From Sandaracinaceae bacterium (GTDB taxonomy: Bacteria > Myxococcota_A > Polyangia > Polyangiales > Sandaracinaceae), in NCBI GenBank assembly GCA_044220955.1, contig JBGAQA010000053.1, positions 1 to 45,732 on the forward strand: a DNA stretch of 45,732 nt. The letters are read 5' to 3'. Position 1 is the stretch's first letter, and every line of letters begins with the position of its first letter. The position numbers were made by a program, and so were the translations under genes. Shown one piece after another: positions 6,443 through 18,997 of the stretch. The notes under the pieces are model-generated. The model was not told the origin of the DNA, made no database searches, and saw only the letters and a list, made by a program, of their open reading frames with translations.

Positions 6443-7297
6443 TCAGCGGGACGCGCGGATGGCGCGGCCGACCCGCACGACCCGCGGGAACATGGGGTAG
6501 CGGACGTGGCTGCGATCGCGGTGCGCGTGATCGCGCTGGCGAACGACGCGCGTGCGCAGCACCGTCCAGCCGGTCGCGCCCTCGTCGACCAGCCGGCGCG
6601 TGCCCGCGGCGAGGTGCCGGTCGCGCTCGACCCGCTCGCGCGGCTGCGTGGTCTGCTCGATCGTCGCGTCCCAGGCGACCTCGAGCGGTGCGGCGTCGGT
6701 CGTCAGCGTGACGAGCAGCTGGTCGCGCTCCGTGCGCGCGTGGATGGTGAGCACGTGGTCGAAAGGGTTCTCGACGACGAGGTCGAGGCGCCCGTTCGCG
6801 ATCGCCGCGTCCATCCCGGGACGCGCGTAGTGCGGCAGGCGCGTGTGCGGGTGCACCTCGGAGACGGGCAGCCCCGCCGTCCAGGCGGCGACGAAGAGCG
6901 TGGTCGCGACCTGGCAGATGCCGCCGCCGATCCCGGGCGTGGGCACGCCGCCGAGCAGCGTCTCGGCATCGAGGAAGCCGCGGTCCTCGGTGCGGGGCCC
7001 CACCCGCGCATCGAACGAGAGCGTGCGTCGGGGTCGGATCGTCGCTCCGTCGAGGAACGACGCGGCCAGGCGCACGTTCGTCACGCGCGCGGTCTCCGAG
7101 AGATCGAGGCTGGTCGCGTGGCGCCCGACCATCCCGTCGGGGAGCTGGAGATCGGCGGTGCGCCCATGCGTTTCCAGCGCCTCGGGCGGAGGTGCCGACG
7201 CGGGAGGCTGCGCGACGAGCAGCGTCGGCGCGAGCAGCGCCGCGCCCAGCGCACACGCCGTCAGGCTCGTCAGGGCTCTCGTGGCGACTGGGCGCAC
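6443..7297 (-). CDS. VanW family exported protein
   Basis: RVTNVRLAA..LDG..I.P...SF...VGPRT..RGF, GIGGGICQVATTLF, HPH..YARPGMDA; N-terminal signal peptide. Confidence 0.9.
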   Translation of the reverse strand: MRPVATRALTSLTACALGAALLAPTLLVAQPPASAPPPEALETHGRTADLQLPDGMVGRHATSLDLSETARVTNVRLAASFLDGATIRPRRTLSFDARVGPRTEDRGFLDAETLLGGVPTPGIGGGICQVATTLFVAAWTAGLPVSEVHPHTRLPHYARPGMDAAIANGRLDLVVENPFDHVLTIHARTERDQLLVTLTTDAAPLEVAWDATIEQTTQPRERVERDRHLAAGTRRLVDEGATGWTVLRTRVVRQRDHAHRDRSHVRYPMFPRVVRVGRAIRASR

Positions 7298-7355: not shown

Positions 7356-8999
7356 TCAGGCGTTGATGCTCGCCGTGATCCGCGACGGCAGCAGGAACGT
7401 GTAGGGCAGCGGTCGCGAGGCGTTTCGCGCCGCGGTCGCCGCCTCGATGGCCCCGAGGTCGGCCTGGAACGCCGCCACGAGCGGTGCGACCCGCGGATCG
7501 ACGAAGTGCCCCGGGTCGTACTTCCCGAGCCAGTTGACGTGCAGGTTCGCGACCTGGAACGTCGCCGTGATCGTCTCCCAGCCGATCTCGGCGGGCGGGA
7601 GCAACGCGTACAGGTCGGCGTCGCTCGCCGTCGCGCGGTCCGGGAGCACGCTCGCCCCCGCAGTGGGCATGCTCGGGACGAACGCGGCCCAGTCGTAGTT
7701 CGAATTGTTGATCGTCGCGTGGTACGCGGTCGCGCGGAAGACGATGCGCGCGATCAGGTCGACCACGTCGGCGACGGTCGCGGGCGCCACGCCGCTGACC
7801 ATCGTGGGCAGGCGCCCACCGTCCGCGGCGCCCACCTCGCGCACGAACGCCTCGAGCTCGGCGTCCCCGCTCACGTCGGCGTCGCTCGGGTAGTAGAGGC
7901 GCACGTAGCTCTCCACGAAGGTCCGTAGCGCCGACCAGATCGGAAGCGCGTCGTCCCGGAACGGGTACTCGAGGAGCACGCCAGCGTCGCCGACGCCCCG
8001 GCGCGCGTAGTCGATCGTCGGGTCGAGCGATGCGAGATCGAGCGTGGCCACGCTGCGGTCGAGGATGTCCGTCTGCGCCTCGATCGTCGGTGCGAGCAGG
8101 CGATCCTGCACGCCTCCGGGACTCACGACCGACTTCCTGGCGACCTGGTTGACCGCGAGCGTCGTCTCGAAGTGCGGCGCCAAGAGGACGAAGAGCGGAT
8201 GGTCCTCCGAGAGCTGCCTGTGCGCCGCGAGGATGAAGCGCTCGATCACCATGTGGCACCACCCGAGGTGCACCAGCACGCCCTGCAGGTTCTCGTCGGC
8301 GACGTTCGCGGCGGTGCGCGCGAGCATCCAGTCGCGGTCGCCCGGGTAGTACAGCGTGGCGCGCCGGCCGGCGTGGCCCGCGACCTGGATCGCGAGCGGC
8401 CGCAGCTTCCCCGGGAACGACGCGTCGACGCAGAACAGGACGATGGGCGCCCAGAGGAACTTGGCGTGCCCATCGGTGACGCCGGTCGGGGCGCCGTCGA
8501 AGAGCGCGTAGTCGGTGACGAAGAGGCGGTGCGAGGCCAGCGCGTCCGCGATCGAGGCTCGCTCGGTGCCGAGCACGCGGCGCAGGTCGGCGTCCGTCAC
8601 CGGCAGCGCCTCCGGCAGCGCGTCGAGGCGCCTGAGAGCGTTCGGCGTCGGTCCCGCGAGCCGCTGCCAGGCGAAGCACCAGTCTTCTCTCCAGTGTGCC
8701 ATCGCGAGCGGTGCCGGCAGGAGCGGGAACATCTTCGCCCACGAGTCGATCGGGCGGCCGTCCTTCGCGACCCAGCTCTCGAGCTTGGCCGCCGCGCGGT
8801 TGGCCTGGAGCTTGATCGTCACCTCCGCGCCCTGGGCGAGGTAGCGCGGAGGGAACATCTCGCGCAGCGGCAGAGACCTCACGAAGCAGAGGTTCGCGTA
8901 CGAGAAATCGTATGCGTAGTCGTCGCGGGCTCTCGCGAGCCGGTCGGCGCGCGCCGCGGCGTCGCTCGCGTGCTGGGGAAGCGTGGGCTGCGCGCTCAT
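7356..8999 (-). CDS. Lipoxygenase family protein LOX1 (547 aa, atypical active-site residues)
   Basis: FAWQRLAGPTP, LRPLAIQ, HLGWCH, HPLFVLLAPHF, EYPFRDDA, HATIN, C-terminus ASINA; GAGGG RBS before ATG 8999. Confidence 0.92.
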   Translation of the reverse strand: MSAQPTLPQHASDAAARADRLARARDDYAYDFSYANLCFVRSLPLREMFPPRYLAQGAEVTIKLQANRAAAKLESWVAKDGRPIDSWAKMFPLLPAPLAMAHWREDWCFAWQRLAGPTPNALRRLDALPEALPVTDADLRRVLGTERASIADALASHRLFVTDYALFDGAPTGVTDGHAKFLWAPIVLFCVDASFPGKLRPLAIQVAGHAGRRATLYYPGDRDWMLARTAANVADENLQGVLVHLGWCHMVIERFILAAHRQLSEDHPLFVLLAPHFETTLAVNQVARKSVVSPGGVQDRLLAPTIEAQTDILDRSVATLDLASLDPTIDYARRGVGDAGVLLEYPFRDDALPIWSALRTFVESYVRLYYPSDADVSGDAELEAFVREVGAADGGRLPTMVSGVAPATVADVVDLIARIVFRATAYHATINNSNYDWAAFVPSMPTAGASVLPDRATASDADLYALLPPAEIGWETITATFQVANLHVNWLGKYDPGHFVDPRVAPLVAAFQADLGAIEAATAARNASRPLPYTFLLPSRITASINA

Positions 9000-9114
9000 G
9001 GTGGGACCCTCGCGCGGCAGGGTACCTCGGCCCCGCGCTCGTCTTCCATCCACACACCGGCTCACGCCTCGCGCCGCGTGGCGACCGCCGGTCGTCGGGG
9101 GACGCGGAGGTCGA

Positions 9115-10758
9115 TCAGATGTGAATGCTGGCCGTGAGGAGAGAGGGCCGCAGGTACGGGTAGGGCAGCAGCCGACGCGCGTCGCGCTCCGCGATGACCG
9201 CGTCGGCGTCCGCGAGCGTGGCCTGCAAGCGCGCGAGCAGCGGCGCGACGCGCGGGTCCGTGAAGTGCTCTCGCGGATACTGGCCGAGGCGGTCGTCGCG
9301 GATCTGCGACTGCTGCCACATGAAGGCGAGCTGCGCGGCGGCCAGACCATGCGCGGGGAGCACCGCCTGCCACGCCGCGCTCCGGTCCCCCCCGGGCGCC
9401 GCGGGCGGTGGGGCGAAGGCGGCCGTCGGCGCGTTCGGCGCCCAGCCGAAGAAGTCGGCCTGCGTGTAGTTCAGCGCGGCATGGTGCGCGCTCGTCGTGA
9501 AGATCACGAAGGTGATCAGCTCCGTCAGCGCGGCGAGTGTCTCGATCTTCTCGGGGACGCCCCTGAGCCGGCCGCCGTCCTGTGCGCGCAGCTCGCTCAC
9601 GAACGCGCGCAGCTCGGCGTCGCCCGCGACCTCGGCGTCACCCTCGTAGACGAGCCCGAGGTAGTCGCGCACGAACGTGCCGAGGGCCAGGTCGATCAGC
9701 GCACCGTCGTCACGGAACGGGTGATCGGGCAGGGCGCTCCGGTCGTCGAGCCCGCGGATCGCGATGTCCCGAGCGAACCCGGCGCTCGCGAGGTCGAACG
9801 TCGCGAGCCCCGCGCGCACGAGCGTGAGCGAGCCCTCGAGCGAGGGCGCGAGCAGCTCGTCGAGCTGCCCGGCCGGGACCACGAGCTTGTCGCGCGCGGC
9901 GTCGTTGATCGCGAGCGTCCCGTGGAAGTGCGGGGAGAGCAGCACGAAGAGCGGGTGGCGCGTCGAGAGCTGGCGCTCGGCGGCGAGCGCGAACGCCTCG
10001 ATCAGGAAGTGTGCGCGCCCGAGGTGCTGGAAGCTCTCCTCGTGGTTCGCGTCGGCGACCTGGACCGCGACGCGCGCCATCTCCCACGCAGCGCCGTCCT
10101 GGGGGGTGAAGATCGGCGTCGCGTGCGATGGCCGCTGTCCGCACTGGACGGCGACGGGCACGAGCCCACGGCCCTTCGCAACACGCACGAAGAGCGCGAG
10201 CGGCGCCGAGATCCAGCGCGGCACGCCCGTCGTCGTCTGGCCTGCCGGCAGGCCGTCGAGCACGGCGTAGTCGGCGAGGAACAGGCGGCCCTCGCCCGAG
10301 GCCGCCGCGAGGGAGTCGCCCTCCGTCGATCGCGTGAAGATCGCGTCGGTCACCGGGAAGTTCTCCGGCAGCCGATCGATCCGGCGCAGCACGAAGGGGT
10401 TGGCGCCCGCGAGGCGCTGCCACCCGAACGCGCGGTCGTCGAGATGGGTCGCGACCGGGGGTGGGGTCAGGAGCGCGTAGAGCGCGCTGCACGCGGCGAT
10501 CGTGCTCGGGGCGTCGTCCGCGACGCCCCGCAGGCCTTCCTTCAGCCGGGCGGCGGCGCGGTTCGCCAGGAGCGCTGCCTGCGCTTGCGCGACCTGCGCG
10601 ACGACTCCGAGGGGGAAGCCCAGCCGCCTCGGCAGAGAGCGCGCCATCGCGACGCCCACCGGGCGGTCCCAAGCGTACGCGAGCTCGTCGCGGGCCCTCG
10701 CCAGCCCGTCCGCCCGGCCGTCGGGGTCGGGGTCGTGCTGCGGAAGCGCCGGCGTCAT
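9115..10758 (-). CDS. Lipoxygenase LOX2 (547 aa)
   Basis: FGWQRLAGANP, LVPVAVQ, NHEESFQHLGRAH, HPLFVLLSPHF, HPFRDDG, HAALNYTQ, C-terminus ASIHI. Confidence 0.95.
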   Translation of the reverse strand: MTPALPQHDPDPDGRADGLARARDELAYAWDRPVGVAMARSLPRRLGFPLGVVAQVAQAQAALLANRAAARLKEGLRGVADDAPSTIAACSALYALLTPPPVATHLDDRAFGWQRLAGANPFVLRRIDRLPENFPVTDAIFTRSTEGDSLAAASGEGRLFLADYAVLDGLPAGQTTTGVPRWISAPLALFVRVAKGRGLVPVAVQCGQRPSHATPIFTPQDGAAWEMARVAVQVADANHEESFQHLGRAHFLIEAFALAAERQLSTRHPLFVLLSPHFHGTLAINDAARDKLVVPAGQLDELLAPSLEGSLTLVRAGLATFDLASAGFARDIAIRGLDDRSALPDHPFRDDGALIDLALGTFVRDYLGLVYEGDAEVAGDAELRAFVSELRAQDGGRLRGVPEKIETLAALTELITFVIFTTSAHHAALNYTQADFFGWAPNAPTAAFAPPPAAPGGDRSAAWQAVLPAHGLAAAQLAFMWQQSQIRDDRLGQYPREHFTDPRVAPLLARLQATLADADAVIAERDARRLLPYPYLRPSLLTASIHI

Positions 10759-10761
10759 CCG

Positions 10762-10777
10762 CGCACGGTACCATGCG
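10762..10777. promoter_or_regulatory. Near-palindromic element carrying back-to-back -10 boxes for LOX2 and LOX3
   Basis: CGCACGGTACCATGCG. Minus strand reads TG-G-TACCGT 6 nt before the LOX2 ATG; plus strand reads TACCAT at 10769-10774. Confidence 0.5.
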
Positions 10778-10821
10778 ACAGCCGTTGCGGGCCGCGACCC
10801 GCCGAGGGCACCCTCTTGCCG

Positions 10822-12567
10822 ATGCTCGACCTCCTGGAATCCCTCCTCCCCCACCGTGAGACCTCCCCGGAGGAGCGCGCGACCCAGCTCGGAAGGGCTC
10901 GGGAGATCTACCGCTACAGCTACCAGTGGCCGCCCGAGGTGGCCGTGGCCGCCGAGGTGCCGCCGCAAGACAGCTACTCGGCGCTCTACGTGGCGGCGTT
11001 GCTCCCGAGCGCGTGGGAGATCTTCAAGAACACGATCGGCCTCGTCGACCTCGTGCACGAGAAGGACGGCCTCGCGAGGTTCTTCGCCGAAGAAGGGCAC
11101 CGCGTCCCCAAGCTCGCGTCGTCGGCGATCGGCGACTGGTACCTGCGCGTCGCGAACGATCTCGCCCGCTACGTCGCGTCGACCACGCCGCCGACCGTCG
11201 CCGCGTACCACGATCTGTACCCGGGCATCGGGCTGCCGAGCGTGAGCGACAAGTGGCAGAGCGACGAGACGTTCGCCTGGCAACGAATCGCGGGCGTGAA
11301 CCCGACGACGCTCACCCGCATCACGCGGATGAGAGACGACGTCCGCATCGGCGAGGCGGAGTACGCGCGCGTCCTGCCGGGCCGCGGCTCGCTCGCCGGC
11401 GCCCTCGCCGAGGGGCGCGTCTTCGCCTGCGACTACACGTTCCTCGACGGGGCGAAGACCGGGGAGTCCTTCGGGATGAAGAAGTGGCTGCCGGCGCCCT
11501 ACGCGGTGTTCGTCGCGGACGGCGGCAAGCTGCGGCCCCTCGCGGTCCAACTGGGCAAGCAGGCGGGCCACCGCATCGTGACGCCGGTCGACGCCAGTCT
11601 CTGGACGATCGCGAAGCTCGCGGTGCAGATCGGCGACGCGAACCACCACGAGACGGTGGCGCACCTCGGGCGTACGCACCTCGTGATGGAGGCCGTCGCG
11701 CTCGCGCTGAAGCGGCAGCTCGCGGAGCGTCACCCGCTCCATCGCCTCCTCTGGCAGCACTGCGAGTACACGCTGCCGATCAACCACTCCGCGGCGACCA
11801 ACCTCATCGCGACCGGTGGCGCGATCGACCTGACGTTCGCGGGCACCATCGAGACGAGCGCGTCCTTCGTCAAGATCGGGCTCGATTCGTTCGACCTGGG
11901 GCGATCGTCGTTGCCGATCGACCTGGCCACGCGCGGGCTCGACGACCGCAGCGTGCTCCCCGAGCTCCCGTATCGAGACGACGGGCTGCCCGTGCTCGGG
12001 GCGATCCGGCGCTTCGTCGATCGCTACGTGCGGCACGCGTATCCGGCCGATGCCGACGTCGCCGCGGACTCCGAGCTGGCGGCGTTCTGCGCGGAGCTCG
12101 GCGCGAGCGACGGGGGGCGCATCCGCGGCGTCGTCGCGCCGGCCACGATCGACGCGCTCGTCGAGCTCGTGACGACGATCGTGTGGATCGGCACCGCACA
12201 GCACGCGGCCGTCAACTTCCCGCAGTTCCCCTTCATGGGGTACGTCCCGAACATGGCGGGCGCGTTCTGGGGCGAGTGGCCGCCGAAGGATCTCGACGAT
12301 CCGAACCTCTACGCGACGCTGCTGCCGCCCTACAACGTCGCGGTGCTGCAGCTGCACACGCTCTATCAGCTCTCTTCGCTGCGCATCAACCACCTCGGCC
12401 ACTACGGCGTGACGACGTTCTTCCACCCCGCGGTGCTCGAGGCGATCGCTCAGTTCAAGTCGGAGCTCGCCGAGATCGAGAAGGCCACACGGGAGCGAGA
12501 CGCGAGTCGCTACATGAGCTACCCGCACCTCTTGCCGAGCAACATCCCGCTGAGCATCCACATTTGA
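10822..12567 (+). CDS. Lipoxygenase LOX3 (581 aa)
   Basis: FAWQRIAGVNP, WTIAK, NHHETVAHLGRTHL, HPLHRLL, PYRDDG, QHAAVNFPQ, C-terminus SIHI. Confidence 0.96.
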   Translation: MLDLLESLLPHRETSPEERATQLGRAREIYRYSYQWPPEVAVAAEVPPQDSYSALYVAALLPSAWEIFKNTIGLVDLVHEKDGLARFFAEEGHRVPKLASSAIGDWYLRVANDLARYVASTTPPTVAAYHDLYPGIGLPSVSDKWQSDETFAWQRIAGVNPTTLTRITRMRDDVRIGEAEYARVLPGRGSLAGALAEGRVFACDYTFLDGAKTGESFGMKKWLPAPYAVFVADGGKLRPLAVQLGKQAGHRIVTPVDASLWTIAKLAVQIGDANHHETVAHLGRTHLVMEAVALALKRQLAERHPLHRLLWQHCEYTLPINHSAATNLIATGGAIDLTFAGTIETSASFVKIGLDSFDLGRSSLPIDLATRGLDDRSVLPELPYRDDGLPVLGAIRRFVDRYVRHAYPADADVAADSELAAFCAELGASDGGRIRGVVAPATIDALVELVTTIVWIGTAQHAAVNFPQFPFMGYVPNMAGAFWGEWPPKDLDDPNLYATLLPPYNVAVLQLHTLYQLSSLRINHLGHYGVTTFFHPAVLEAIAQFKSELAEIEKATRERDASRYMSYPHLLPSNIPLSIHI

Positions 12568-15500
12568 CCCGGCCGCTCTCCTCCGCGACGCTCGACGAGC
12601 CGGTTCGACTCGGGCGCTACGACGTCACCGGGCTGATCCGTGCCGGCGGCATGGGCACCGTCTACGACGCGGTCGACCGCGAGCACGGGACGAGGGTCGC
12701 GCTCAAGACGCTGACCGAGCTCGACGCGGAGAGCCTGCGCCGCTTCAAGACGGAGTTCCGGGCCGTCGCCGATCTCGCCCATCCGAACCTCGTGCCGCTC
12801 TACGAGCTCAGCTCGGACGACGGGATCTGGTTTCTCACGATGGAGCGCATCGAGGGGGTCGACTTCCTCGAGGGGCTGCGCGGGCCCTCGGCGCGGGAAG
12901 CCCCGACGTTGGAGGAGCGGCAGCAGGCGGAGGCCACCACCCGCCCGCGCCCCGGCGACACCCCGCGCGCGATCCCTCCCGAGCTCACGCCCTCGCTCCC
13001 CGACTCGCTCCCTGGTCTTCGTGACGCGTTCGCGCAGCTCGCCCGCGGGGTTCGCGCGCTGCACGACGCGGGTCTGGTCCACCTGGACCTCAAGCCCAGC
13101 AACGTGATGATCGATCCGCGTGGGCGTGTCGTGGTGCTGGACTTCGGCCTCGTCCGGGGGATGGGCGAGGGGCCGACTCGGACGCTCGACGGCGAGGGCG
13201 AGGGCGGCGTGTCCGGCACGCCGGCGTGGATGGCTCCCGAGCAATTCGCCGGTGAACCGATCGGTCCGGCCGCGGACTGGTACGCGGTCGGGCTGATGCT
13301 CTACCGGGCGCTGACGGGTGTGCCGGCGTTCCCGCCCGCGAGCGTGGCGGTCACGTGGTTCGCGAAGACGCACCTGCCGCCGACGCCGCCGAACGAGCTG
13401 CTCTCGGGCGTGCCGGCCGACCTCTCGACGCTCGCCATGGAGCTGCTCCATCCCGATCCGGCCTCGCGCCCCGGTGGCGACACGATCGTCGAGGTCCTGA
13501 CCGGGAGGGGGACCACACCCTCGTCGGCCGGCGCGATCCCCTCGCGCACCGACCTCGTGGGCCGCGCGGCCGAGCGCGACGCCACGCTCGCGGTGCTGCG
13601 CCGGGTCGGCGCGGGCGGGGCGGGTCTGGTGCATCTCCGCGGGCCCTCGGGGGTCGGCAAGTCCGCGCTCCTCGGCGATCTGCGCAGGGCAGCGCGCGCC
13701 AGCGGGGACGCGCTGGTCCTTCGTGGCCGGTGCTACGAGCGGGAGTCGGTCCCCTACAAGGCGTTCGACGGCATGTTCGACGAGCTCGCGCGCGAGCTCG
13801 GGCTCCTGACCGACGCCGACGTCGAGCGCGTGCTGCCGCGCTGGATCGCCGAGGTCGCGCGCGTGTTTCCCGTGCTCGGCACCGTGCGGATCATCCGCGA
13901 GCGGATGGAGCGTTCGAACGTCACGTCCGCGATCGTCTCCGCGATGGAGCTGCGGAGGCGCGCGCTCGTCGCCGCGCGCGAGCTGATCAGCAACCTCGCG
14001 TCGCAGCGCGTGGTGGTGCTGGAGATCGACGATCTGCAGTGGGCGGACGCGGACAGCATCGCGCTCCTCGATGCCCTGCTCGCAGCTCCGGCTCTCCGTC
14101 GCGTGCTCGTCGCGGCGTCGTTCCGCCCGCACGAGGCGAGCACGTCGACGGCGAGCGCCGCGTACCTGAGCGCGGTCCCCGAATTCGCGGCCCGGGACGA
14201 TCTCGAGCTCGTGACCATCGACGTCGGTCCTCTGTCGGAGCCCGAGGCGCGCCGGCTCGCGGCCGCCACGCTCGGCACCCACGACGAGCGCTCGACCCGG
14301 CTGGCCGCCGCGATCGCGGGGGAGTCCGGGGGGGTGCCCTTCTTCGTCGAAGAGCTGGCGCGCTTCGCGAACCAGGAGCGGGAGGCCGGGCGCGAGATCT
14401 CGACGAGCGGCGTCACCCTCGAGGGTCTGCTGGTGCAGCGGATCGAGACGCTGCCCTCGGCCGAGCGTGCTCTCGTCGAGGTGCTCGCCATCGCGAACAA
14501 CCCGATCCCCCTCTCCGTGGCCTTCGCCGTGGCGGGGATCGAGACGGGCGTGCTCCGCGCGCTCTGGGCGCTTCGGGGTGGTCACTTCGTCCGCGCGACG
14601 GGCGCGCGTGCGAGCGATCGCATCGAGCTGCATCACGATCGCATGCGCGAGTCGGTGGTCGCCTCGATGCCCGCCGCCCGGATCGAGTCGCACCGCCTCG
14701 CGCTCGGCCGCACGCTCGCCGCGCTGGGGCCGCAGAGCCCCTGGCTCTTCGACGCCGTGCGCCACCTGAACGGCGTGATGCATCGGATCGACGGCGAGGA
14801 GCGTGTCGCGGCGGCCCGTCTGAACCTCGCCGCGGGGCGCCAGGCGCGGCGGGGCGCTGCGTTCGCGCTGGCGTTCGAGTGCTACCGCGCCGCGAGCCGC
14901 TGGCTCGACGCGAACGCGTGGGAGACGAGCTACGATCTCGCCCTGGCGGTCCACGAGGGCGCCGCCGAGGCCGCGTACCTGAGCGGCTCGTGGGGCGAGC
15001 TCGACGGGTTCGTCGCCGCGGTCAAGGAGAACGGGCGGACGGTCCTCGACCGCCTCGCGGCGTCGGAGGTCGAGATCGACGCGCTCATCGCGCGCAATCG
15101 GTACGGCGAGGCGGTGGCCGTGGCCCTGCGCGCGCTCCGTTCGCTGAACGTCGAGCTGCCGGAGGATCCGGGCGAGGCCGAGGTGGGCGTGGAGGTCGGC
15201 GCGGCGATGAGCGCGCTGGGCGCCATCGGCCCCGAGGGCGTCGCAGGGCTCGGCGTCGCCACCGATCCCGCCGTGCTCGCGGAGATGCGGATCGAGAGCC
15301 GGATCTCGTCGGCCGCCTATTTCGCCAAGCCGATGCTCCTGCCGATCCTCGCCTGCCGTCTGGTCACGCTCTCGGTCGCGCGGGGCGCGAGTCCGGCGAC
15401 CGCCTACGCGCTGGCCGTCTACGGCATCGTGCTCAACTCGATCGGCATGCTGCGCGAGGCGCACACCTGGGGAGGCGTCGCCGAGCGCCTCATCGAGCGC

Positions 15501-16400
15501 TTCGACGACCGCAGCTTCGAGGCACGTACGCGGCACGTCGTGCACGACCTCGTCTGCACGTGGATGGTCCCGCTGCGAGGCACGCTGGCCAGCCTCCGCG
15601 CCGTCGTCGACGTCGGCAAGAGCACGGGCGACCTCGAGTACGCCGCCTACGCGGCGCACGCGTACGTCCACAACGCGTTCTACGCGTCGGTCGACCTCGA
15701 CGCGCTGCTCGACGAGGCGCTCGACCTCGGCGCGTTCATGCGCGGCCAGGGGCAGGTGAACGCGCTGCACGTCCACGAGCCCTTCGAGCAGCTGCTCCGG
15801 TGCTTCACGGGGCGCGCGCAGAGCCCGGCCACCCTCGACGGCCACGGCTTCCGCGAGGCCGACGCGCTCGCGCGCGCACGCGCCCAGGGATCGCGCAGCG
15901 CTCAGTGCCTCGTGCCCTTGCTGATGGGCATCGTCCGCTACCACTTCGGCTCTGCGGTCGAGGCCAGCGCCCAGCTCGAGGCCGCTCGGCCCTTCCTCGA
16001 CGGGCTGGCCTCGACCTGGCACCAGCCGATGCTCCACCAGTACGCGGCGCTCGCGATCTGGGCGCTGCCCGACGGCGCCCGCGCGCCGCTCGAGGCGAGC
16101 GCGGACGCCAGCCTCGAGGCGCTGCGCAAGCTCGCCGAAGCGGCGCCGTTCAACTTCGCGCATCGCGTGCAGCTGGTCGAGGCCGTGCGCGCGGTGGCGC
16201 GGGGAGAGCCCGAGCTCGCGCGGGAGCGATTCCGGCAAGCCGCGAGCGCCGCCGAGGCCAGCGCGTTCTGGCTCGACCTCGGCGTGATCCACGAGCGCTG
16301 GGCCGAGCTCGACGAGCCGAGCGCGCACCGCGAGGCCGCGAACCTGGCGTACGCGCGGTGTCGCGCGCACGCCAAGTTCGGCCGCTCCGTGGCCCGCTGA
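12564..16400 (+). CDS. Ser/Thr kinase (non-RD) - STAND/AAA ATPase - helical repeat protein (COG3899-like, no GAF/His-kinase tail), about 1278 aa
   Basis: TTG start overlaps the LOX3 stop (TTGA). GGMGTVY, VALK, HLDLKPSN, DFG, MAPEQ; Walker A GPSGVGKS; Walker B LEIDDLQWAD; GGVPFFVEEL; HHDRMRE; long helical C-terminal half including GDLEYAAY. Confidence 0.9.
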   Translation: MTRPLSSATLDEPVRLGRYDVTGLIRAGGMGTVYDAVDREHGTRVALKTLTELDAESLRRFKTEFRAVADLAHPNLVPLYELSSDDGIWFLTMERIEGVDFLEGLRGPSAREAPTLEERQQAEATTRPRPGDTPRAIPPELTPSLPDSLPGLRDAFAQLARGVRALHDAGLVHLDLKPSNVMIDPRGRVVVLDFGLVRGMGEGPTRTLDGEGEGGVSGTPAWMAPEQFAGEPIGPAADWYAVGLMLYRALTGVPAFPPASVAVTWFAKTHLPPTPPNELLSGVPADLSTLAMELLHPDPASRPGGDTIVEVLTGRGTTPSSAGAIPSRTDLVGRAAERDATLAVLRRVGAGGAGLVHLRGPSGVGKSALLGDLRRAARASGDALVLRGRCYERESVPYKAFDGMFDELARELGLLTDADVERVLPRWIAEVARVFPVLGTVRIIRERMERSNVTSAIVSAMELRRRALVAARELISNLASQRVVVLEIDDLQWADADSIALLDALLAAPALRRVLVAASFRPHEASTSTASAAYLSAVPEFAARDDLELVTIDVGPLSEPEARRLAAATLGTHDERSTRLAAAIAGESGGVPFFVEELARFANQEREAGREISTSGVTLEGLLVQRIETLPSAERALVEVLAIANNPIPLSVAFAVAGIETGVLRALWALRGGHFVRATGARASDRIELHHDRMRESVVASMPAARIESHRLALGRTLAALGPQSPWLFDAVRHLNGVMHRIDGEERVAAARLNLAAGRQARRGAAFALAFECYRAASRWLDANAWETSYDLALAVHEGAAEAAYLSGSWGELDGFVAAVKENGRTVLDRLAASEVEIDALIARNRYGEAVAVALRALRSLNVELPEDPGEAEVGVEVGAAMSALGAIGPEGVAGLGVATDPAVLAEMRIESRISSAAYFAKPMLLPILACRLVTLSVARGASPATAYALAVYGIVLNSIGMLREAHTWGGVAERLIERFDDRSFEARTRHVVHDLVCTWMVPLRGTLASLRAVVDVGKSTGDLEYAAYAAHAYVHNAFYASVDLDALLDEALDLGAFMRGQGQVNALHVHEPFEQLLRCFTGRAQSPATLDGHGFREADALARARAQGSRSAQCLVPLLMGIVRYHFGSAVEASAQLEAARPFLDGLASTWHQPMLHQYAALAIWALPDGARAPLEASADASLEALRKLAEAAPFNFAHRVQLVEAVRAVARGEPELARERFRQAASAAEASAFWLDLGVIHERWAELDEPSAHREAANLAYARCRAHAKFGRSVAR

Positions 16401-16424: not shown

Positions 16425-18050
16425 TCAGCGTCCGTAGCTCGAGCTCGAGAACCACCACTCGACGCCGATGCCGAGGAAGTGCTCGATGGGCTGACGAGAG
16501 CGTGGGTCGAGGTCGTTGTACAGCGAGCGCGCTCCGTCGTCGCGCGCCGTCATGACGTAGATCAGACGGATCTGCGGTCGGGTGTAGGTGCCGCGGCCGA
16601 AGGGAGACAGGAACGGCATGATGCCGAGCTTGAAGATCCCGCCGCCCTCGGGCGCGCCGGTGCGCTCGTCGATCGCGGCCGTCTGCATCGCCTGGTAGGA
16701 GAGATCCAGCGCGACGCCGGCGACGTCACCGATCCAGACCATCGGGCGGGCGCTGACGGCTCCCTCGCTGATCGCCGAGCGGTTGAAGACGGCCGGGTCG
16801 GCGTCGCGGAAGAGCCGCCACCAGCCGCCGACCTGCACGCCGAACGCGACGTCCGCGCTCTCGCGCCACTCCCAGTTGCCGCTGATCGCGAGCCGGATCT
16901 CCTCGGCGCGGCCGGTCTGGATCACGGTGCCCGTCCTGAACGGGACGCCGAGCGGATCGTAGGCCCCGAGGCCCCGCGCGTAGCGGAAGAACGCGTTCAG
17001 AAACGCGTGCTGATCCCCGAGGTAGCCGCCCACCTGCGCGCCGACGACGTAGCCGGAGTCCTCGGGCAGGCGCTCGACCGTCGCGTCGTCGCGGCGGCGC
17101 TCGCCTGCGCCGAGGTAGTGCTGTTCCCCGTAGAGGCGGGCGAGCATCCCGGTGGTGGCGAAGCGGCCGAAGGGCCACCACGTCACGCGGCCGCTCGTGA
17201 CGATGCGCGGCCGGTCGAGCACGAAGACCTGGTCGGGCAGGAATCCGATGCGCGCGGGCGCGAGCGTCTGTTGCTGCTGGTAGGGGTTGTTCGGCTCGGC
17301 CATACCCACCTGCAGCCGGAGCTCCAGATCGTCCTCGAAGTCGTAGCCGAGCCCGCCGCCGACCATGTTGAGGTTGTCGAGCGGCCAGAAGTTCATGAGG
17401 TACACGTCGTCGCCGCGCACCATCCGCGAGCCGCCCCAGAACGAGAGCCCGCGCGCGAGGATGTTGCGCGCCTCGACGAAGAGGTTGCGGACGGCGATCC
17501 GCGTCGTGAAGTCGCCCGTGTAGTGGAAGAGCGGGCCGCCGTACGCGACGGTGAACACCACGCGCGTGTCGACGCCGAAGAACTGGTCCTCGCGGCGCAG
17601 CTCGAGCTCCGCGTAGGTGTCGTCCTGATCGACACGCGGCGCGAACGCGACGATGCCCGACTGGCGTCCCGTCTGGCCTTGGAGATCCGAGGCGGCCGTC
17701 ACGCGGCCGTACGAGCCGAAGTGGAAGCCGTTCATGAAGCGCGTCAGCTCGTCGATGTGCTCGTCCTGGCCACGCTCGTGGGCCGCGTCCGCGTCGCCCT
17801 CCGTCTCGAGCGAGTCCTCGGCCGCGGCGAGCTCCGCGTCGTGCGCCTCCGTCTCGGCCGTGGTCGTCGTCTCCGCGGTGGCTCGAGCCGCGGCAGCGGC
17901 GCGCGCCTGGTCCTCGCGCGCCATCCGCTGCGCGAGATCCTCCGGCACGTCGGTGTTGCCCGCCGTGTCCTGCGCGCGCGCGTGCCCGGCGCCGAGCGCC
18001 ACGAGAGCTGCCGCGAGCCAGACCCTCCGCACGGCGCGACAGTACCTCAA
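16425..18050 (-). CDS. LamB/maltoporin-like carbohydrate porin (start 18050 TTG or 18032 GTG)
   Basis: Signal peptide ARA-Q, helical N-terminal extension, FHFGSYGR, YAELEL, RNLFVEARN, DDVYLMNFWPLD, RPQIRLIY, LGIGVEWWF near the C-terminus. Confidence 0.75.
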   Translation of the reverse strand: MRYCRAVRRVWLAAALVALGAGHARAQDTAGNTDVPEDLAQRMAREDQARAAAAARATAETTTTAETEAHDAELAAAEDSLETEGDADAAHERGQDEHIDELTRFMNGFHFGSYGRVTAASDLQGQTGRQSGIVAFAPRVDQDDTYAELELRREDQFFGVDTRVVFTVAYGGPLFHYTGDFTTRIAVRNLFVEARNILARGLSFWGGSRMVRGDDVYLMNFWPLDNLNMVGGGLGYDFEDDLELRLQVGMAEPNNPYQQQQTLAPARIGFLPDQVFVLDRPRIVTSGRVTWWPFGRFATTGMLARLYGEQHYLGAGERRRDDATVERLPEDSGYVVGAQVGGYLGDQHAFLNAFFRYARGLGAYDPLGVPFRTGTVIQTGRAEEIRLAISGNWEWRESADVAFGVQVGGWWRLFRDADPAVFNRSAISEGAVSARPMVWIGDVAGVALDLSYQAMQTAAIDERTGAPEGGGIFKLGIMPFLSPFGRGTYTRPQIRLIYVMTARDDGARSLYNDLDPRSRQPIEHFLGIGVEWWFSSSSYGR

Positions 18051-18997
18051 CCGATCCGGTCGCGGCCTGCTTGTTTCGCCGCCAGCAGGCGCTCGTCGGC
18101 GACGCGCATGAGGCCCGGCTCGTCCCGCGCGTCGGCGGGAAGGAGCGCGATCCCGGCCGAGATCGTCGTGCGCAGCTGCAGGTCACCGAAGCCGATGCAG
18201 AGCGCCCGCACCTCGCGGAGCACCTGCTCGACGAGCGACGTCGCGGCGGCGGAGTCCGTCCGAGCCATCGCGATCGCGAGCTCGTCCCCGCCGAGGCGTG
18301 CCGTCAGGCCGCGCGCGCCCACGATGCGGCCGAGGAGCCGGCCGATCTCCTTGATCGTCTGCGCGCCCGCGAGGTGGCCGTGCGCGTCGTTGATGGCCTT
18401 GATCCCGTCGATGTCGAGCATGACGATCGCGAGCGGCTCGCCCGAGAGGTTCGCCGCCTCGACCAGCGCGGCGAGGTCGGTCTCGAAGCGACGGCGCGAG
18501 AGCAGACCCGTGAGGTCGTCGCGCGCGATGCGCTCGATCACGGCGTGGTCGAAGGCCTGCTCGACGGGGTCGTGCATCTCGAGCCGCATGAGCGTGTCGC
18601 CGACGCCGAGCTGATCGCCGCGCACGAGGAACGCCTCCTTCCGGATCGGCGCGCCGTTCACCTCGGTGCCGTGCTTGCTGCCGAGGTCGCGCACGCGGAT
18701 GCCTCCCAAGCGGCCGTCCTTGGCGCGGACGACCTCGACGATGGCGTGCTTCCACGAGACGGCGGGATCGCGGAGCACGAGGTGGTTCTCCGGGCCGCGG
18801 CCGATCGTGACCGCGCCGTCCACCAGGGTCCGCTCGCCCAGCTGCGGGCCGGCGAGCACGACGAGGACGGCCTTCTTCTCGTCGTCGGCCGGTGGACGGC
18901 TCGAGCCGGGCCGGATGGCGGTGAGGTCGGGCAGGGTGCGCGTCCCGTCCCGCACCGTCGTGTGCAGGTCATGGGGCGGTTTGCCGCTACGCGTCAC
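18047..18997 (-). CDS. FHA domain + GGDEF-family dinucleotide cyclase (GGDEL)
   Basis: FHA: TIGRG...VSWKHA...DLGSKHGT. GGDEF: DDLTGL, DIDGIKAINDAHGH, RLGGDEL, TISAG, AD..L..AK..GR. Confidence 0.92.
   Translation of the reverse strand: MTRSGKPPHDLHTTVRDGTRTLPDLTAIRPGSSRPPADDEKKAVLVVLAGPQLGERTLVDGAVTIGRGPENHLVLRDPAVSWKHAIVEVVRAKDGRLGGIRVRDLGSKHGTEVNGAPIRKEAFLVRGDQLGVGDTLMRLEMHDPVEQAFDHAVIERIARDDLTGLLSRRRFETDLAALVEAANLSGEPLAIVMLDIDGIKAINDAHGHLAGAQTIKEIGRLLGRIVGARGLTARLGGDELAIAMARTDSAAATSLVEQVLREVRALCIGFGDLQLRTTISAGIALLPADARDEPGLMRVADERLLAAKQAGRDRIG

What the first reader, a model, noticed from the sequence alone, without database searches (positions are those of the whole stretch)
7356..16400. 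Three lipoxygenases coupled to a kinase-STAND (NLR-like) receptor: candidate bacterial oxylipin signalling/immunity system
Seen: three adjacent, diverged, PLAT-less lipoxygenases with no signal peptide (two on minus, one on plus, sharing a 63-bp divergent gap). The LOX3 stop overlaps the TTG start (TTGA) of a ~1278-aa protein with kinase, STAND ATPase and long helical-repeat sensor-like regions and no obvious TM. Known: LOXs oxygenate polyunsaturated fatty acids to oxylipins and occur in myxobacteria. STAND ATPases are ligand-gated switches in animal/plant NLRs and bacterial Avs systems. Inference: a cytoplasmic oxylipin-making cascade is co-expressed with a receptor kinase that senses its product or controls the LOXs. 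It could act in multicellular signalling, predation or lipid-peroxidation-based cell death/defence. I do not know of a described system with this architecture.
Basis: partly seen in the sequence, partly recalled or inferred. Interest (0 to 1): 0.9.

Follow-up and report, generated by a model that had tools for sequence, protein, structure and literature searches.

The report
Lipoxygenase cluster with kinase-STAND receptor
In myxobacteria-like bacteria, genes for two or three lipid-oxidising enzymes repeatedly sit beside a large switch-type signalling protein, which suggests an undescribed circuit in which the cell makes an oxidised fatty-acid signal and reads it with an NLR-like receptor.

Summary
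The four genes are real and at the stated places. The link is not chance: a kinase–STAND ATPase–TPR gene (KS) lay beside 17 of 40 lipoxygenase (LOX) loci sampled across the phylum (0.13 expected) and 17 of 30 in a held-out family, but 0 of 38 drawn cyanobacterial loci. The three LOXs are conserved types. Type III (LOX1) keeps the iron ligands but has an altered active site, and usually lies directly upstream of KS. Of 45 KS-bearing LOX loci, 30 had type III and 11 a coral allene-oxide-synthase-like protein, none both. The window's KS joins a swapped-in kinase-ATPase to the triad-linked TPR and lacks the GAF-cyclase or histidine-kinase tail of many relatives. Best reading (0.5): a two-step oxylipin synthase plus its receptor. 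Against a strict link: 5 of 9 close KS orthologues have no adjacent LOX, and the LOX3/KS overlap looks recent. No defence-island signal; immunity is the weaker reading. No ligand, binding or co-transcription is shown. The scan noted the catalase-like sister form before on other DNA (e1-3830587); I found no paper on either.

The parts
7356..8999 (-). LOX1, type III lipoxygenase, 547 aa. Metal ligands H244, H249, H427, N431 kept; Gly240 and Asn434 replace the Glu and Gln of canonical LOXs; ends in Ala, not Ile
   Evidence: model pLDDT 95.4, fold match 5med TM 0.94
9115..10758 (-). LOX2, type II lipoxygenase, 547 aa, all ligands and C-terminal Ile kept; the type found mostly in three-gene clusters
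10759..10821 (.). 63-bp divergent gap between LOX2 and LOX3; no sigma-70-like site found
10822..12567 (+). LOX3, type I (canonical) lipoxygenase, 581 aa; best solved relative 8x8f (E 1.6e-94)
12564..16400 (+). KS, 1278-aa cytoplasmic kinase-STAND-TPR protein, no GAF or output tail; TTG start overlaps the LOX3 stop
12630..13490 (+). Ser/Thr kinase domain (aa 23-309) with intact glycine loop, K48, catalytic D175 and DFG 193-195
13554..14111 (+). STAND-type ATPase core (AAA_16, aa 331-516): N-terminal GR..E, Walker A K366, Walker B D489-D490; GxP motif follows at aa 590-592
14736..16358 (+). TPR-like 26-helix solenoid (aa 725-1265), the presumed sensor; no Pfam or NCBIfam match; groups with the sensors beside other LOX triads

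Best explanation
A signal synthase and receptor module. Shown: the genes, their domains and their recurrent linkage. Inferred: LOX3 (type I) oxygenates a polyunsaturated fatty acid to a hydroperoxide; LOX1 (type III), with LOX2 as an optional extra step, converts it to a specific oxylipin, most likely as a hydroperoxide isomerase or second oxygenase; in sister loci a catalase-like allene-oxide-synthase relative takes this second step. The product binds the TPR solenoid of KS, flips the STAND switch, and activates the output, which here is the Ser/Thr kinase and in many relatives a nucleotide cyclase or histidine kinase.
For: Linkage: 17 of 40 phylum loci against 0.13 expected from 49 KS genes in 25 genomes; in 9 of those genomes the only KS found is the one beside the LOX; 17 of 30 in a held-out family. 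Second enzyme: over 132 loci, type III in 35, the catalase-like family in 15, both in 0; of 45 KS loci 30 have type III, 11 the catalase-like gene, and the other 4 are cut by contig ends or frameshifted. One catalase-like member matches coral allene oxide synthase 1u5u at E 1e-62. Type III differs at fixed sites: Gly for Glu in 19 of 21, Gln lost in 21 of 21, C-terminal Ile in 1 of 21, against 22 of 22 canonical in type I, with all three His kept. All 12 type III loci of the held-out set have KS directly downstream. Over 16 loci TPR distances track type III (rho 0.79, partial 0.69) more than type I (0.54, partial 0.16). The TPR stays while the output changes: cyclase, histidine kinase or no tail; intact kinase glycine loop in 17 of 17 tail-less and 0 of 29 tailed proteins (read by eye). 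The genome encodes a PfaA PUFA synthase over the cut-off. Precedents: P. aeruginosa ODS (PMC6377657, passages); 12R-LOX then eLOX3 (PMC13059375, passages).
Against: No ligand, activity or expression data. TPR solenoids, including the structural neighbours Rap, NprR and LGN, mostly bind peptides or proteins (binding habit recalled). Of the 9 members of the window's KS clade only 4 are LOX-adjacent (G000, G004, G674, G680); G002 and G005 keep triad and KS apart, and no triad was found in G001, nor any LOX in G062 and G063 (incomplete genomes). KS-type genes occur in 80 of 361 genomes with no LOX match, so most of the family has other inputs. 23 of 40 phylum LOX loci lack KS, several being cut short. 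Kin are not independent, so the Mantel and chance figures overstate. The type III substitutions do not by themselves indicate isomerase activity; M. xanthus has two tandem LOXs that are both ordinary dioxygenases (PMC5760719, passages).
Confidence: 0.5

Rival explanations
1. The atypical LOX (or the catalase-like protein) is a protein partner: it senses a fatty acid or lipid peroxide and docks on the TPR, as MalY, Aes and MalK regulate the STAND protein MalT (recalled). The module then monitors lipid peroxidation state instead of sending a diffusible signal.
For: TPR and type III co-diverge; stop and start codons overlap or abut between type III and KS in G006, G016, G024 and G025; TPR solenoids usually bind proteins (recalled); type III has a changed active site and C-terminus.
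Against: Type III alternates with a structurally unrelated catalase-like protein beside homologous sensors, which fits a shared product better than a shared surface; all three His ligands are kept in 21 of 21 type III; KS persists unlinked or without a detected triad in 5 of 9 close orthologues.
Confidence: 0.2
2. KS is upstream: it senses stress or a phage protein and switches on the LOXs, whose lipid peroxides damage the membrane (abortive infection or programmed death).
For: STAND-TPR proteins include phage sensors (10.64898/2026.01.04.697583, abstract start and passages); the window kinase has intact motifs; the module is patchy among relatives.
Against: Only 8 of 92 neighbouring proteins hit PADLOC, all through generic domains (helicase, ATPase, topoisomerase, kinase, WYL, patatin, sigma-54, Uma2); the window KS hits in the 25 rows shown are kinase-centred, and the LOXs and TPR have none; many relatives carry cyclase or histidine-kinase tails with a degenerate kinase loop; flanking genes are syntenic within the genus.
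Confidence: 0.15
3. KS regulates expression or activity of a LOX pathway used for feeding on or detoxifying prey lipids; the link is regulatory with an unrelated input and no oxylipin sensing.
For: KS-type proteins are general cytosolic signalling proteins present in 106 of 401 genomes; HstK-family members answer to nitrogen or iron status (PMC2176072, passages).
Against: It does not explain why the sensor domain co-diverges with one LOX type or why KS loci nearly always have exactly one kind of second enzyme; solo type I loci of the held-out set had no KS (4 of 4, one cut short).
Confidence: 0.12
4. Chance neighbours in a kinase-rich genome.
For: The genome has 24 AAA_16 matches over the cut-off and many kinases (192 tblastn hits); the overlap in the window looks recent.
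Against: 17 observed against 0.13 expected; repeated in a held-out family; direct orthologues G674 and G680 in another family lie behind a type III LOX.
Confidence: 0.03

Closest known systems
HstK-type dual kinases (cbSTKIII; kinase + COG3899 ATPase + GAF + histidine kinase) and CP1 pseudokinases (PMC2176072, PMC12599244; passages)
   Same: Cytosolic kinase-ATPase-helical layout; the window TPR aligns over its length with cyanobacterial and clostridial kinase-ATPase-GAF proteins at 20-28% identity
   Different: The window protein lacks GAF and histidine kinase, has an intact kinase loop and an ATPase from another lineage; no link of this family to LOX appeared in the passages read
P. aeruginosa ODS oxylipin quorum sensing: diol synthase operon PA2077-PA2078 and adjacent receptor OdsR (PMC6377657; passages)
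   Same: Two-enzyme oxylipin synthase next to a receptor gene; the logic I propose
   Different: No shared protein family: non-haem LOXs, not diol synthases; a kinase-STAND-TPR protein, not a LysR regulator
Mammalian 12R-LOX and eLOX3 (PMC13059375; passages)
   Same: A canonical LOX followed by an atypical paralogue that may act on its hydroperoxide
   Different: Isomerase activity of type III is untested; no PLAT domain; eLOX3 builds the skin barrier and has no linked receptor
Coral allene oxide synthase-LOX fusion (PDB 1u5u, 3dy5)
   Same: Sister loci carry a catalase-like homologue beside a LOX and a STAND gene
   Different: The window has no such gene in the locus or by tblastn in its genome; type III LOX takes that place
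Avs and other bacterial NLR-like phage sensors (10.64898/2026.01.04.697583; passages)
   Same: Effector-STAND-TPR architecture
   Different: No defence neighbourhood and no profile match outside the generic kinase region
M. xanthus MXAN_1744 and MXAN_1745 (11-LOX and 12-LOX; PMC5760719; passages)
   Same: Tandem myxobacterial LOX genes that make hydroperoxides and hepoxilins
   Different: Their type and neighbours were not examined here; both are active dioxygenases

Membership tests
Lipoxygenases (PF00305) | Profile match over the cut-off and LOX fold | tested here: met
   148-183 bits against 23.6; TM 0.93-0.94 to 5med for LOX1
Lipoxygenases (PF00305) | Three His plus Asn/His/Ser metal ligands | tested here: met
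   Invariant in all three
Lipoxygenases (PF00305) | C-terminal Ile (rarely Val) as carboxylate ligand (PMC13059375) | tested here: inconclusive
   Met for LOX2 and LOX3; LOX1 ends in Ala, and 10 of 21 type III end in Ala or Ser; effect on metal binding unknown
Lipoxygenases (PF00305) | Dioxygenase activity on PUFA | not testable with these tools
   Needs enzyme assay
STAND NTPases | N-terminal GR..E motif, Walker A, hhhhDD Walker B, GxP motif (feature list recalled) | tested here: met
   Residues 333-337, 360-367, 484-490, 590-592; AAA_16 82 bits against 32.6
STAND NTPases | C-terminal repeat sensor and N-terminal effector | tested here: met
   TPR-like solenoid; kinase 23-309
STAND NTPases | Ligand-triggered nucleotide exchange and oligomerisation | not testable with these tools
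   Needs biochemistry
HstK-type dual kinases (cbSTKIII) | N-terminal Ser/Thr kinase domain | tested here: met
HstK-type dual kinases (cbSTKIII) | GAF plus C-terminal histidine kinase | tested here: not met
   The frame ends at aa 1278, 13 residues after the TPR; no GAF or HisKA match. LOX-adjacent relatives L177 and L206 do have the tail
Avs / NLR-like antiphage STANDs | Match to a defence-system profile beyond a generic domain | tested here: inconclusive
   The 25 of 30 PADLOC rows shown are kinase-centred; TPR and LOXs have 0 hits; the library dates from 2023
Avs / NLR-like antiphage STANDs | Location in defence islands | tested here: not met
   8 of 92 neighbours with generic hits, mostly single genes per locus; no background rate computed
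Avs / NLR-like antiphage STANDs | Protection against phage | not testable with these tools
   Needs phage assay
ODS oxylipin quorum sensing | Diol synthase pair and LysR-type OdsR | tested here: not met
   The four proteins match PF00305, Pkinase and AAA_16 only
Allene oxide synthase-LOX systems | Catalase-like AOS domain fused or adjacent to LOX | tested here: not met
   None in the window, and no tblastn hit in G000 with catalase-like queries

The most novel reading that the evidence does not exclude
A widespread bacterial lipid-mediator circuit: a LOX cascade with a new, atypical LOX subfamily makes a specific oxylipin from the cell's own PUFA, and an NLR-like STAND-TPR receptor reads it, with exchangeable outputs (kinase, cyclase, histidine kinase) and orphan receptors that listen to neighbours. 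It would be the first ligand class for the HstK/COG3899-type receptors and the first STAND receptor for an oxylipin that I know of.
Probability: 0.4. Interest if true: 0.92.

Novelty: categorically new. Interest (0 to 1): 0.8.

Why it matters
The role of bacterial lipoxygenases is open: the papers read treat lipid signalling in myxobacteria as a suggestion (PMC6612559, passages) and name no receptor, kinase or operon. This locus names a candidate receptor and a candidate second enzyme, so the question becomes testable with four soluble proteins. It also offers a candidate input for a large orphan family of kinase-ATPase-TPR proteins, and type III LOXs may be new biocatalysts. 'Categorically new' refers to the gene module, which failed membership in each known system tested; if the best explanation holds, its logic resembles known synthase-receptor pairs built from other parts.

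Tried and rejected
Complex prediction, KS TPR residues 86-541 of the domain with LOX1: no answer (score 0.00 twice); not evidence either way. RNA runs: no RNA holder listed, so no reads were laid. Promoter and terminator scan: 0 and 1 sites, at shuffle level. The first KS-anchored scan gave 0 of 80 loci with a LOX; 65 of those 80 match only the ATPase half (read), so it tested the wrong family for most rows, but the three full-length close hits also had no LOX in their loci. The metagenome scan gave 5 short loci with no KS, too short to inform. Five named myxobacterial genomes had no match to the LOX alignment, so no named cultured carrier was found. NCBIfam: no family over its cut-off for any of the six queries. 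ESM Atlas named no family for the TPR. The careful LOX tree did not finish; the quick tree was used, FastTree elsewhere. Literature: nine answered full-text searches (searches are ten listings; all read as listings only) showed no paper on a LOX-kinase or LOX-STAND operon; term look-ups in 10.1101/2022.06.21.497025, PMC6612559 and PMC13319228 found 'kinase' 0 times, and in PMC7159879, PMC12419801 and 10.64898/2026.01.04.697583 'lipoxygenase' 0 times. Most subscription papers are not in the library, and no supplements were read; the STAND clade tables of the last paper may bear on the defence question. Rejected: GAF as the required sensor (tail-less KS stay LOX-adjacent in G000, G004, G006, G276, G296, G328, G674, G680); the TTGA overlap as proof of old coupling; VanW as part of the module (seen only within the genus).
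Full report
OBSERVATION. The four genes are as described: LOX1 7356-8999 (-), LOX2 9115-10758 (-), a 63-bp gap, LOX3 10822-12567 (+) and a 1278-aa frame from a TTG at 12564 to 16400. Pfam gives Lipoxygenase for each LOX, and Pkinase plus AAA_16 for the large protein, here called KS. The kinase and STAND motifs are intact. The last 541 residues have no family match but fold with pLDDT 95.8 into 26 helices that resemble TPR solenoids (best Z 19.2, rmsd 6.2, 434 aligned; Rap and LGN near Z 14). The tool notes that Z near 13-14 is common for helical repeats, so this shows a fold class and no function. The best named relatives of KS are myxobacterial metagenome genomes, the closest titled Sandaracinus sp., so the host is probably a myxobacterium (inference). 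The genome has three LOX genes, all here, one further KS-type gene on C15, and a PfaA PUFA synthase over its cut-off.

IS THE LINK REAL? Among 60 relatives, 19 had a LOX match. In three other genera and a fourth cut by a contig end (G006; G012, G021, G025; G020, G024; G016), two or three LOXs form a one-way run directly followed by a KS-type gene. Across 401 genomes drawn from the phylum, 40 had a LOX match (only two candidates were scored per genome). I fetched 40 of the 44 loci outside G000 (G047 was fetched before; three weak ones were left out) and found a kinase-ATPase-TPR gene within 1.5 kb of a LOX in 17. The 39 other LOX genomes hold 49 such genes in 25 genomes (the search profile included these neighbours), which gives 0.13 expected neighbours on a generous target. 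In 9 genomes the only copy found is the one beside the LOX. A second family, not used to build the profiles, gave 17 of 30 loci (no background count there; G669 left out as it repeats G047). Cyanobacteria gave 0 of 38 drawn loci (38 of 45 rows fetched) and 1 of 2 loci from genomes picked through a KS hit. Kin are not independent, but adjacent KS genes come from at least seven family codes and from several separate branches of the TPR tree.

THREE KINDS OF LOX. In an 89-row tree, 53 rows form one clade (99%) with three subclades: type I (22 rows, LOX3), type II (10, LOX2) and type III (21, LOX1) (FastTree). All keep three His ligands. Type I is canonical at 22 of 22 for the Glu four residues before the first His, the Gln three after the Asn ligand, and the C-terminal Ile. 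Type III has Gly at the first site in 19 of 21, never Gln at the second, and Ile in 1 of 21. That these two sites are second-sphere residues (soybean Q495, Q697) is recalled, not from a call. Of 22 genomes with this clade, 18 have KS adjacent; G002, G005 and G351 do not, and G407 is cut short. In the held-out family all 12 type III loci have KS directly downstream, and 4 solo type I loci (one short) have none.

TWO ALTERNATIVE SECOND ENZYMES. I met a catalase-like gene between a cyclase-ATPase gene and a LOX in G001; the scan's note e1-3830587 describes such loci on other DNA and led me to count them. Over 132 LOX loci, type III occurs in 35, the catalase-like family in 15, and both in none. 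Of 45 loci with KS, 30 have type III and 11 the catalase-like gene; the other four (L113, L220, L268, L285) are cut by contig ends or frameshifted. Of 84 loci without a STAND gene, 5 have type III and 1 the catalase-like gene. One member matches coral allene oxide synthase at E 1e-62. I did not check the haem-ligand claim of that note. The type profiles were built from part of these loci, so the held-out 30 are the cleaner test: 12 type III, 6 catalase-like, no overlap. This pattern suggests that the module needs a LOX plus one hydroperoxide-processing step plus a STAND protein (inference).

HISTORY OF THIS COPY. The window TPR lies in a 100% clade with sensors beside other triads (G012, G020, G021, G024, G308) and G043, which has no LOX match. 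Its ATPase groups instead with a myxobacterial kinase-ATPase family that has no such TPR; holding the ATPases of the TPR clade together is rejected (p-AU 2e-60 on 29 rows; the group was named after I saw the trees). So the kinase-ATPase half was exchanged and the tail lost while the TPR stayed. Tail-less proteins have an intact kinase glycine loop (17 of 17) and tailed ones do not (0 of 29; read by eye), which points to the kinase as the output here. Direct orthologues in another family (G674, G680; 45-50% in each part) lie behind type III; G674 reads I (reverse), II, III, KS. Inverting that LOX block gives the window's order, so the LOX3/KS overlap is probably recent (parsimony, no rooted test); G004 has the same order with a 110-bp gap.

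RESULTS AGAINST. Five of nine members of the closest KS clade have no adjacent LOX: G002 and G005 keep both parts on different contigs with other genes between, and no triad was found in G001 nor any LOX in G062 and G063. KS-type genes are in 80 of 361 genomes without a LOX match, and 23 of 40 phylum LOX loci lack KS. Orphan receptors fit a diffusible signal, as with solo LuxR proteins (recalled), but also fit a looser tie. LOX1 and LOX2 cannot share the KS transcript in this genome. Nothing here shows activity, ligand or expression.

MECHANISM. Best: synthase plus receptor (0.5). Type I makes a hydroperoxide, type III (with or without II) converts it, the TPR binds the product and the STAND switch fires the output. 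The TPR tracks type III more than type I over 16 loci (rho 0.79 against 0.54; shared descent inflates both). Rivals: type III as a bound sensing subunit (0.2); KS upstream, with LOX as a death or defence effector (0.15), weakened by ordinary neighbours (8 of 92 generic PADLOC hits; Pfam shows varied housekeeping and signalling genes); a regulator with an unrelated input (0.12); chance (0.03).

KNOWN SYSTEMS. It would work like P. aeruginosa ODS (PMC6377657, passages) and, for the enzymes, like 12R-LOX with eLOX3 (PMC13059375, passages), but is a member of neither. KS is a STAND protein related to HstK-type dual kinases (PMC2176072, PMC12599244, passages) but fails membership for lack of GAF and histidine kinase. 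Ten searches of the held library (listings) and term look-ups in six papers showed no description of this module; the library lacks most subscription papers and I read no supplements. The name SWACOS for kinase- or cyclase-linked STANDs appears in two papers; that KS belongs to that clade is recalled, not tested.

DATA NOTE. G026 is flagged unpublished. It supplies one locus without KS among the 132, rows in the trees, and one genome in the tallies; no conclusion rests on it.

VERDICT. A real, recurrent and apparently undescribed gene module; its catalase-like sister form was noted once by this scan. The coupling is well supported (about 0.95); the oxylipin-receptor mechanism is the most likely reading and is unproven. 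Interest 0.8.

Noticed in passing
L124:9659-17150 (G001): A cyclase-AAA_16 protein (1310 aa), a catalase-like protein (632 aa) and a LOX form a one-way run; the same ATPase-catalase-LOX order recurs in L280 and L286. A second kind of STAND joined to LOX, as in note e1-3830587.
   Followed up: partly
window 14736-16358: The ESM Atlas feature search ranks unnamed diatom-dominated clusters first for the TPR (0.95-0.96). Diatoms make many oxylipins (recalled); a lead only, no alignment.
   Followed up: no
L125:9525-12038, L126, L127, L130:8716-11226: About 840-aa LOXs fused to a START-like (Polyketide_cyc2) domain and a C2 domain, next to a second START-like gene in three loci; no STAND nearby. 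L130 is from the unpublished G026.
   Followed up: no
L123:7317-10702 and L128:9378-12331: A single divergent LOX followed by an FAD-binding ALO-type oxidase in two genomes of different families.
   Followed up: no
L256:7940-16300 (G455): A cyanobacterial locus with a type I and type III pair followed by KS-GAF: the module also occurs outside the window's phylum.
   Followed up: partly
G000:C15:4115-8035 (L172): A second tail-less KS in the same genome, with no LOX nearby, in the clade whose other members sit beside type I+III pairs; a possible orphan receptor.
   Followed up: partly
L168:6673-8328 and L201:17088-18638: A kinase fused to a cyclic-nucleotide-binding domain lies next to cyclase-tailed KS genes in two genomes, a possible downstream reader of their product.
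   Followed up: no
window 6443-7297: A VanW-like gene follows LOX1 in the same direction in G000, G002, G004 and G005, and 1.6 kb away in G003; not seen beside LOXs of other genera.
   Followed up: partly
L111:10096-10662 and L112:9205-10774 (G002): The start of LOX2 (residues 3-89) lies mid-contig followed by other genes, while residues 26-547 end another contig: a partial duplication or an assembly fault.
   Followed up: no
window 16425-18997: A LamB-like porin and an FHA-GGDEF gene follow KS on the opposite strand; the pair is also downstream of KS, at a distance, in G004 and G005.
   Followed up: no
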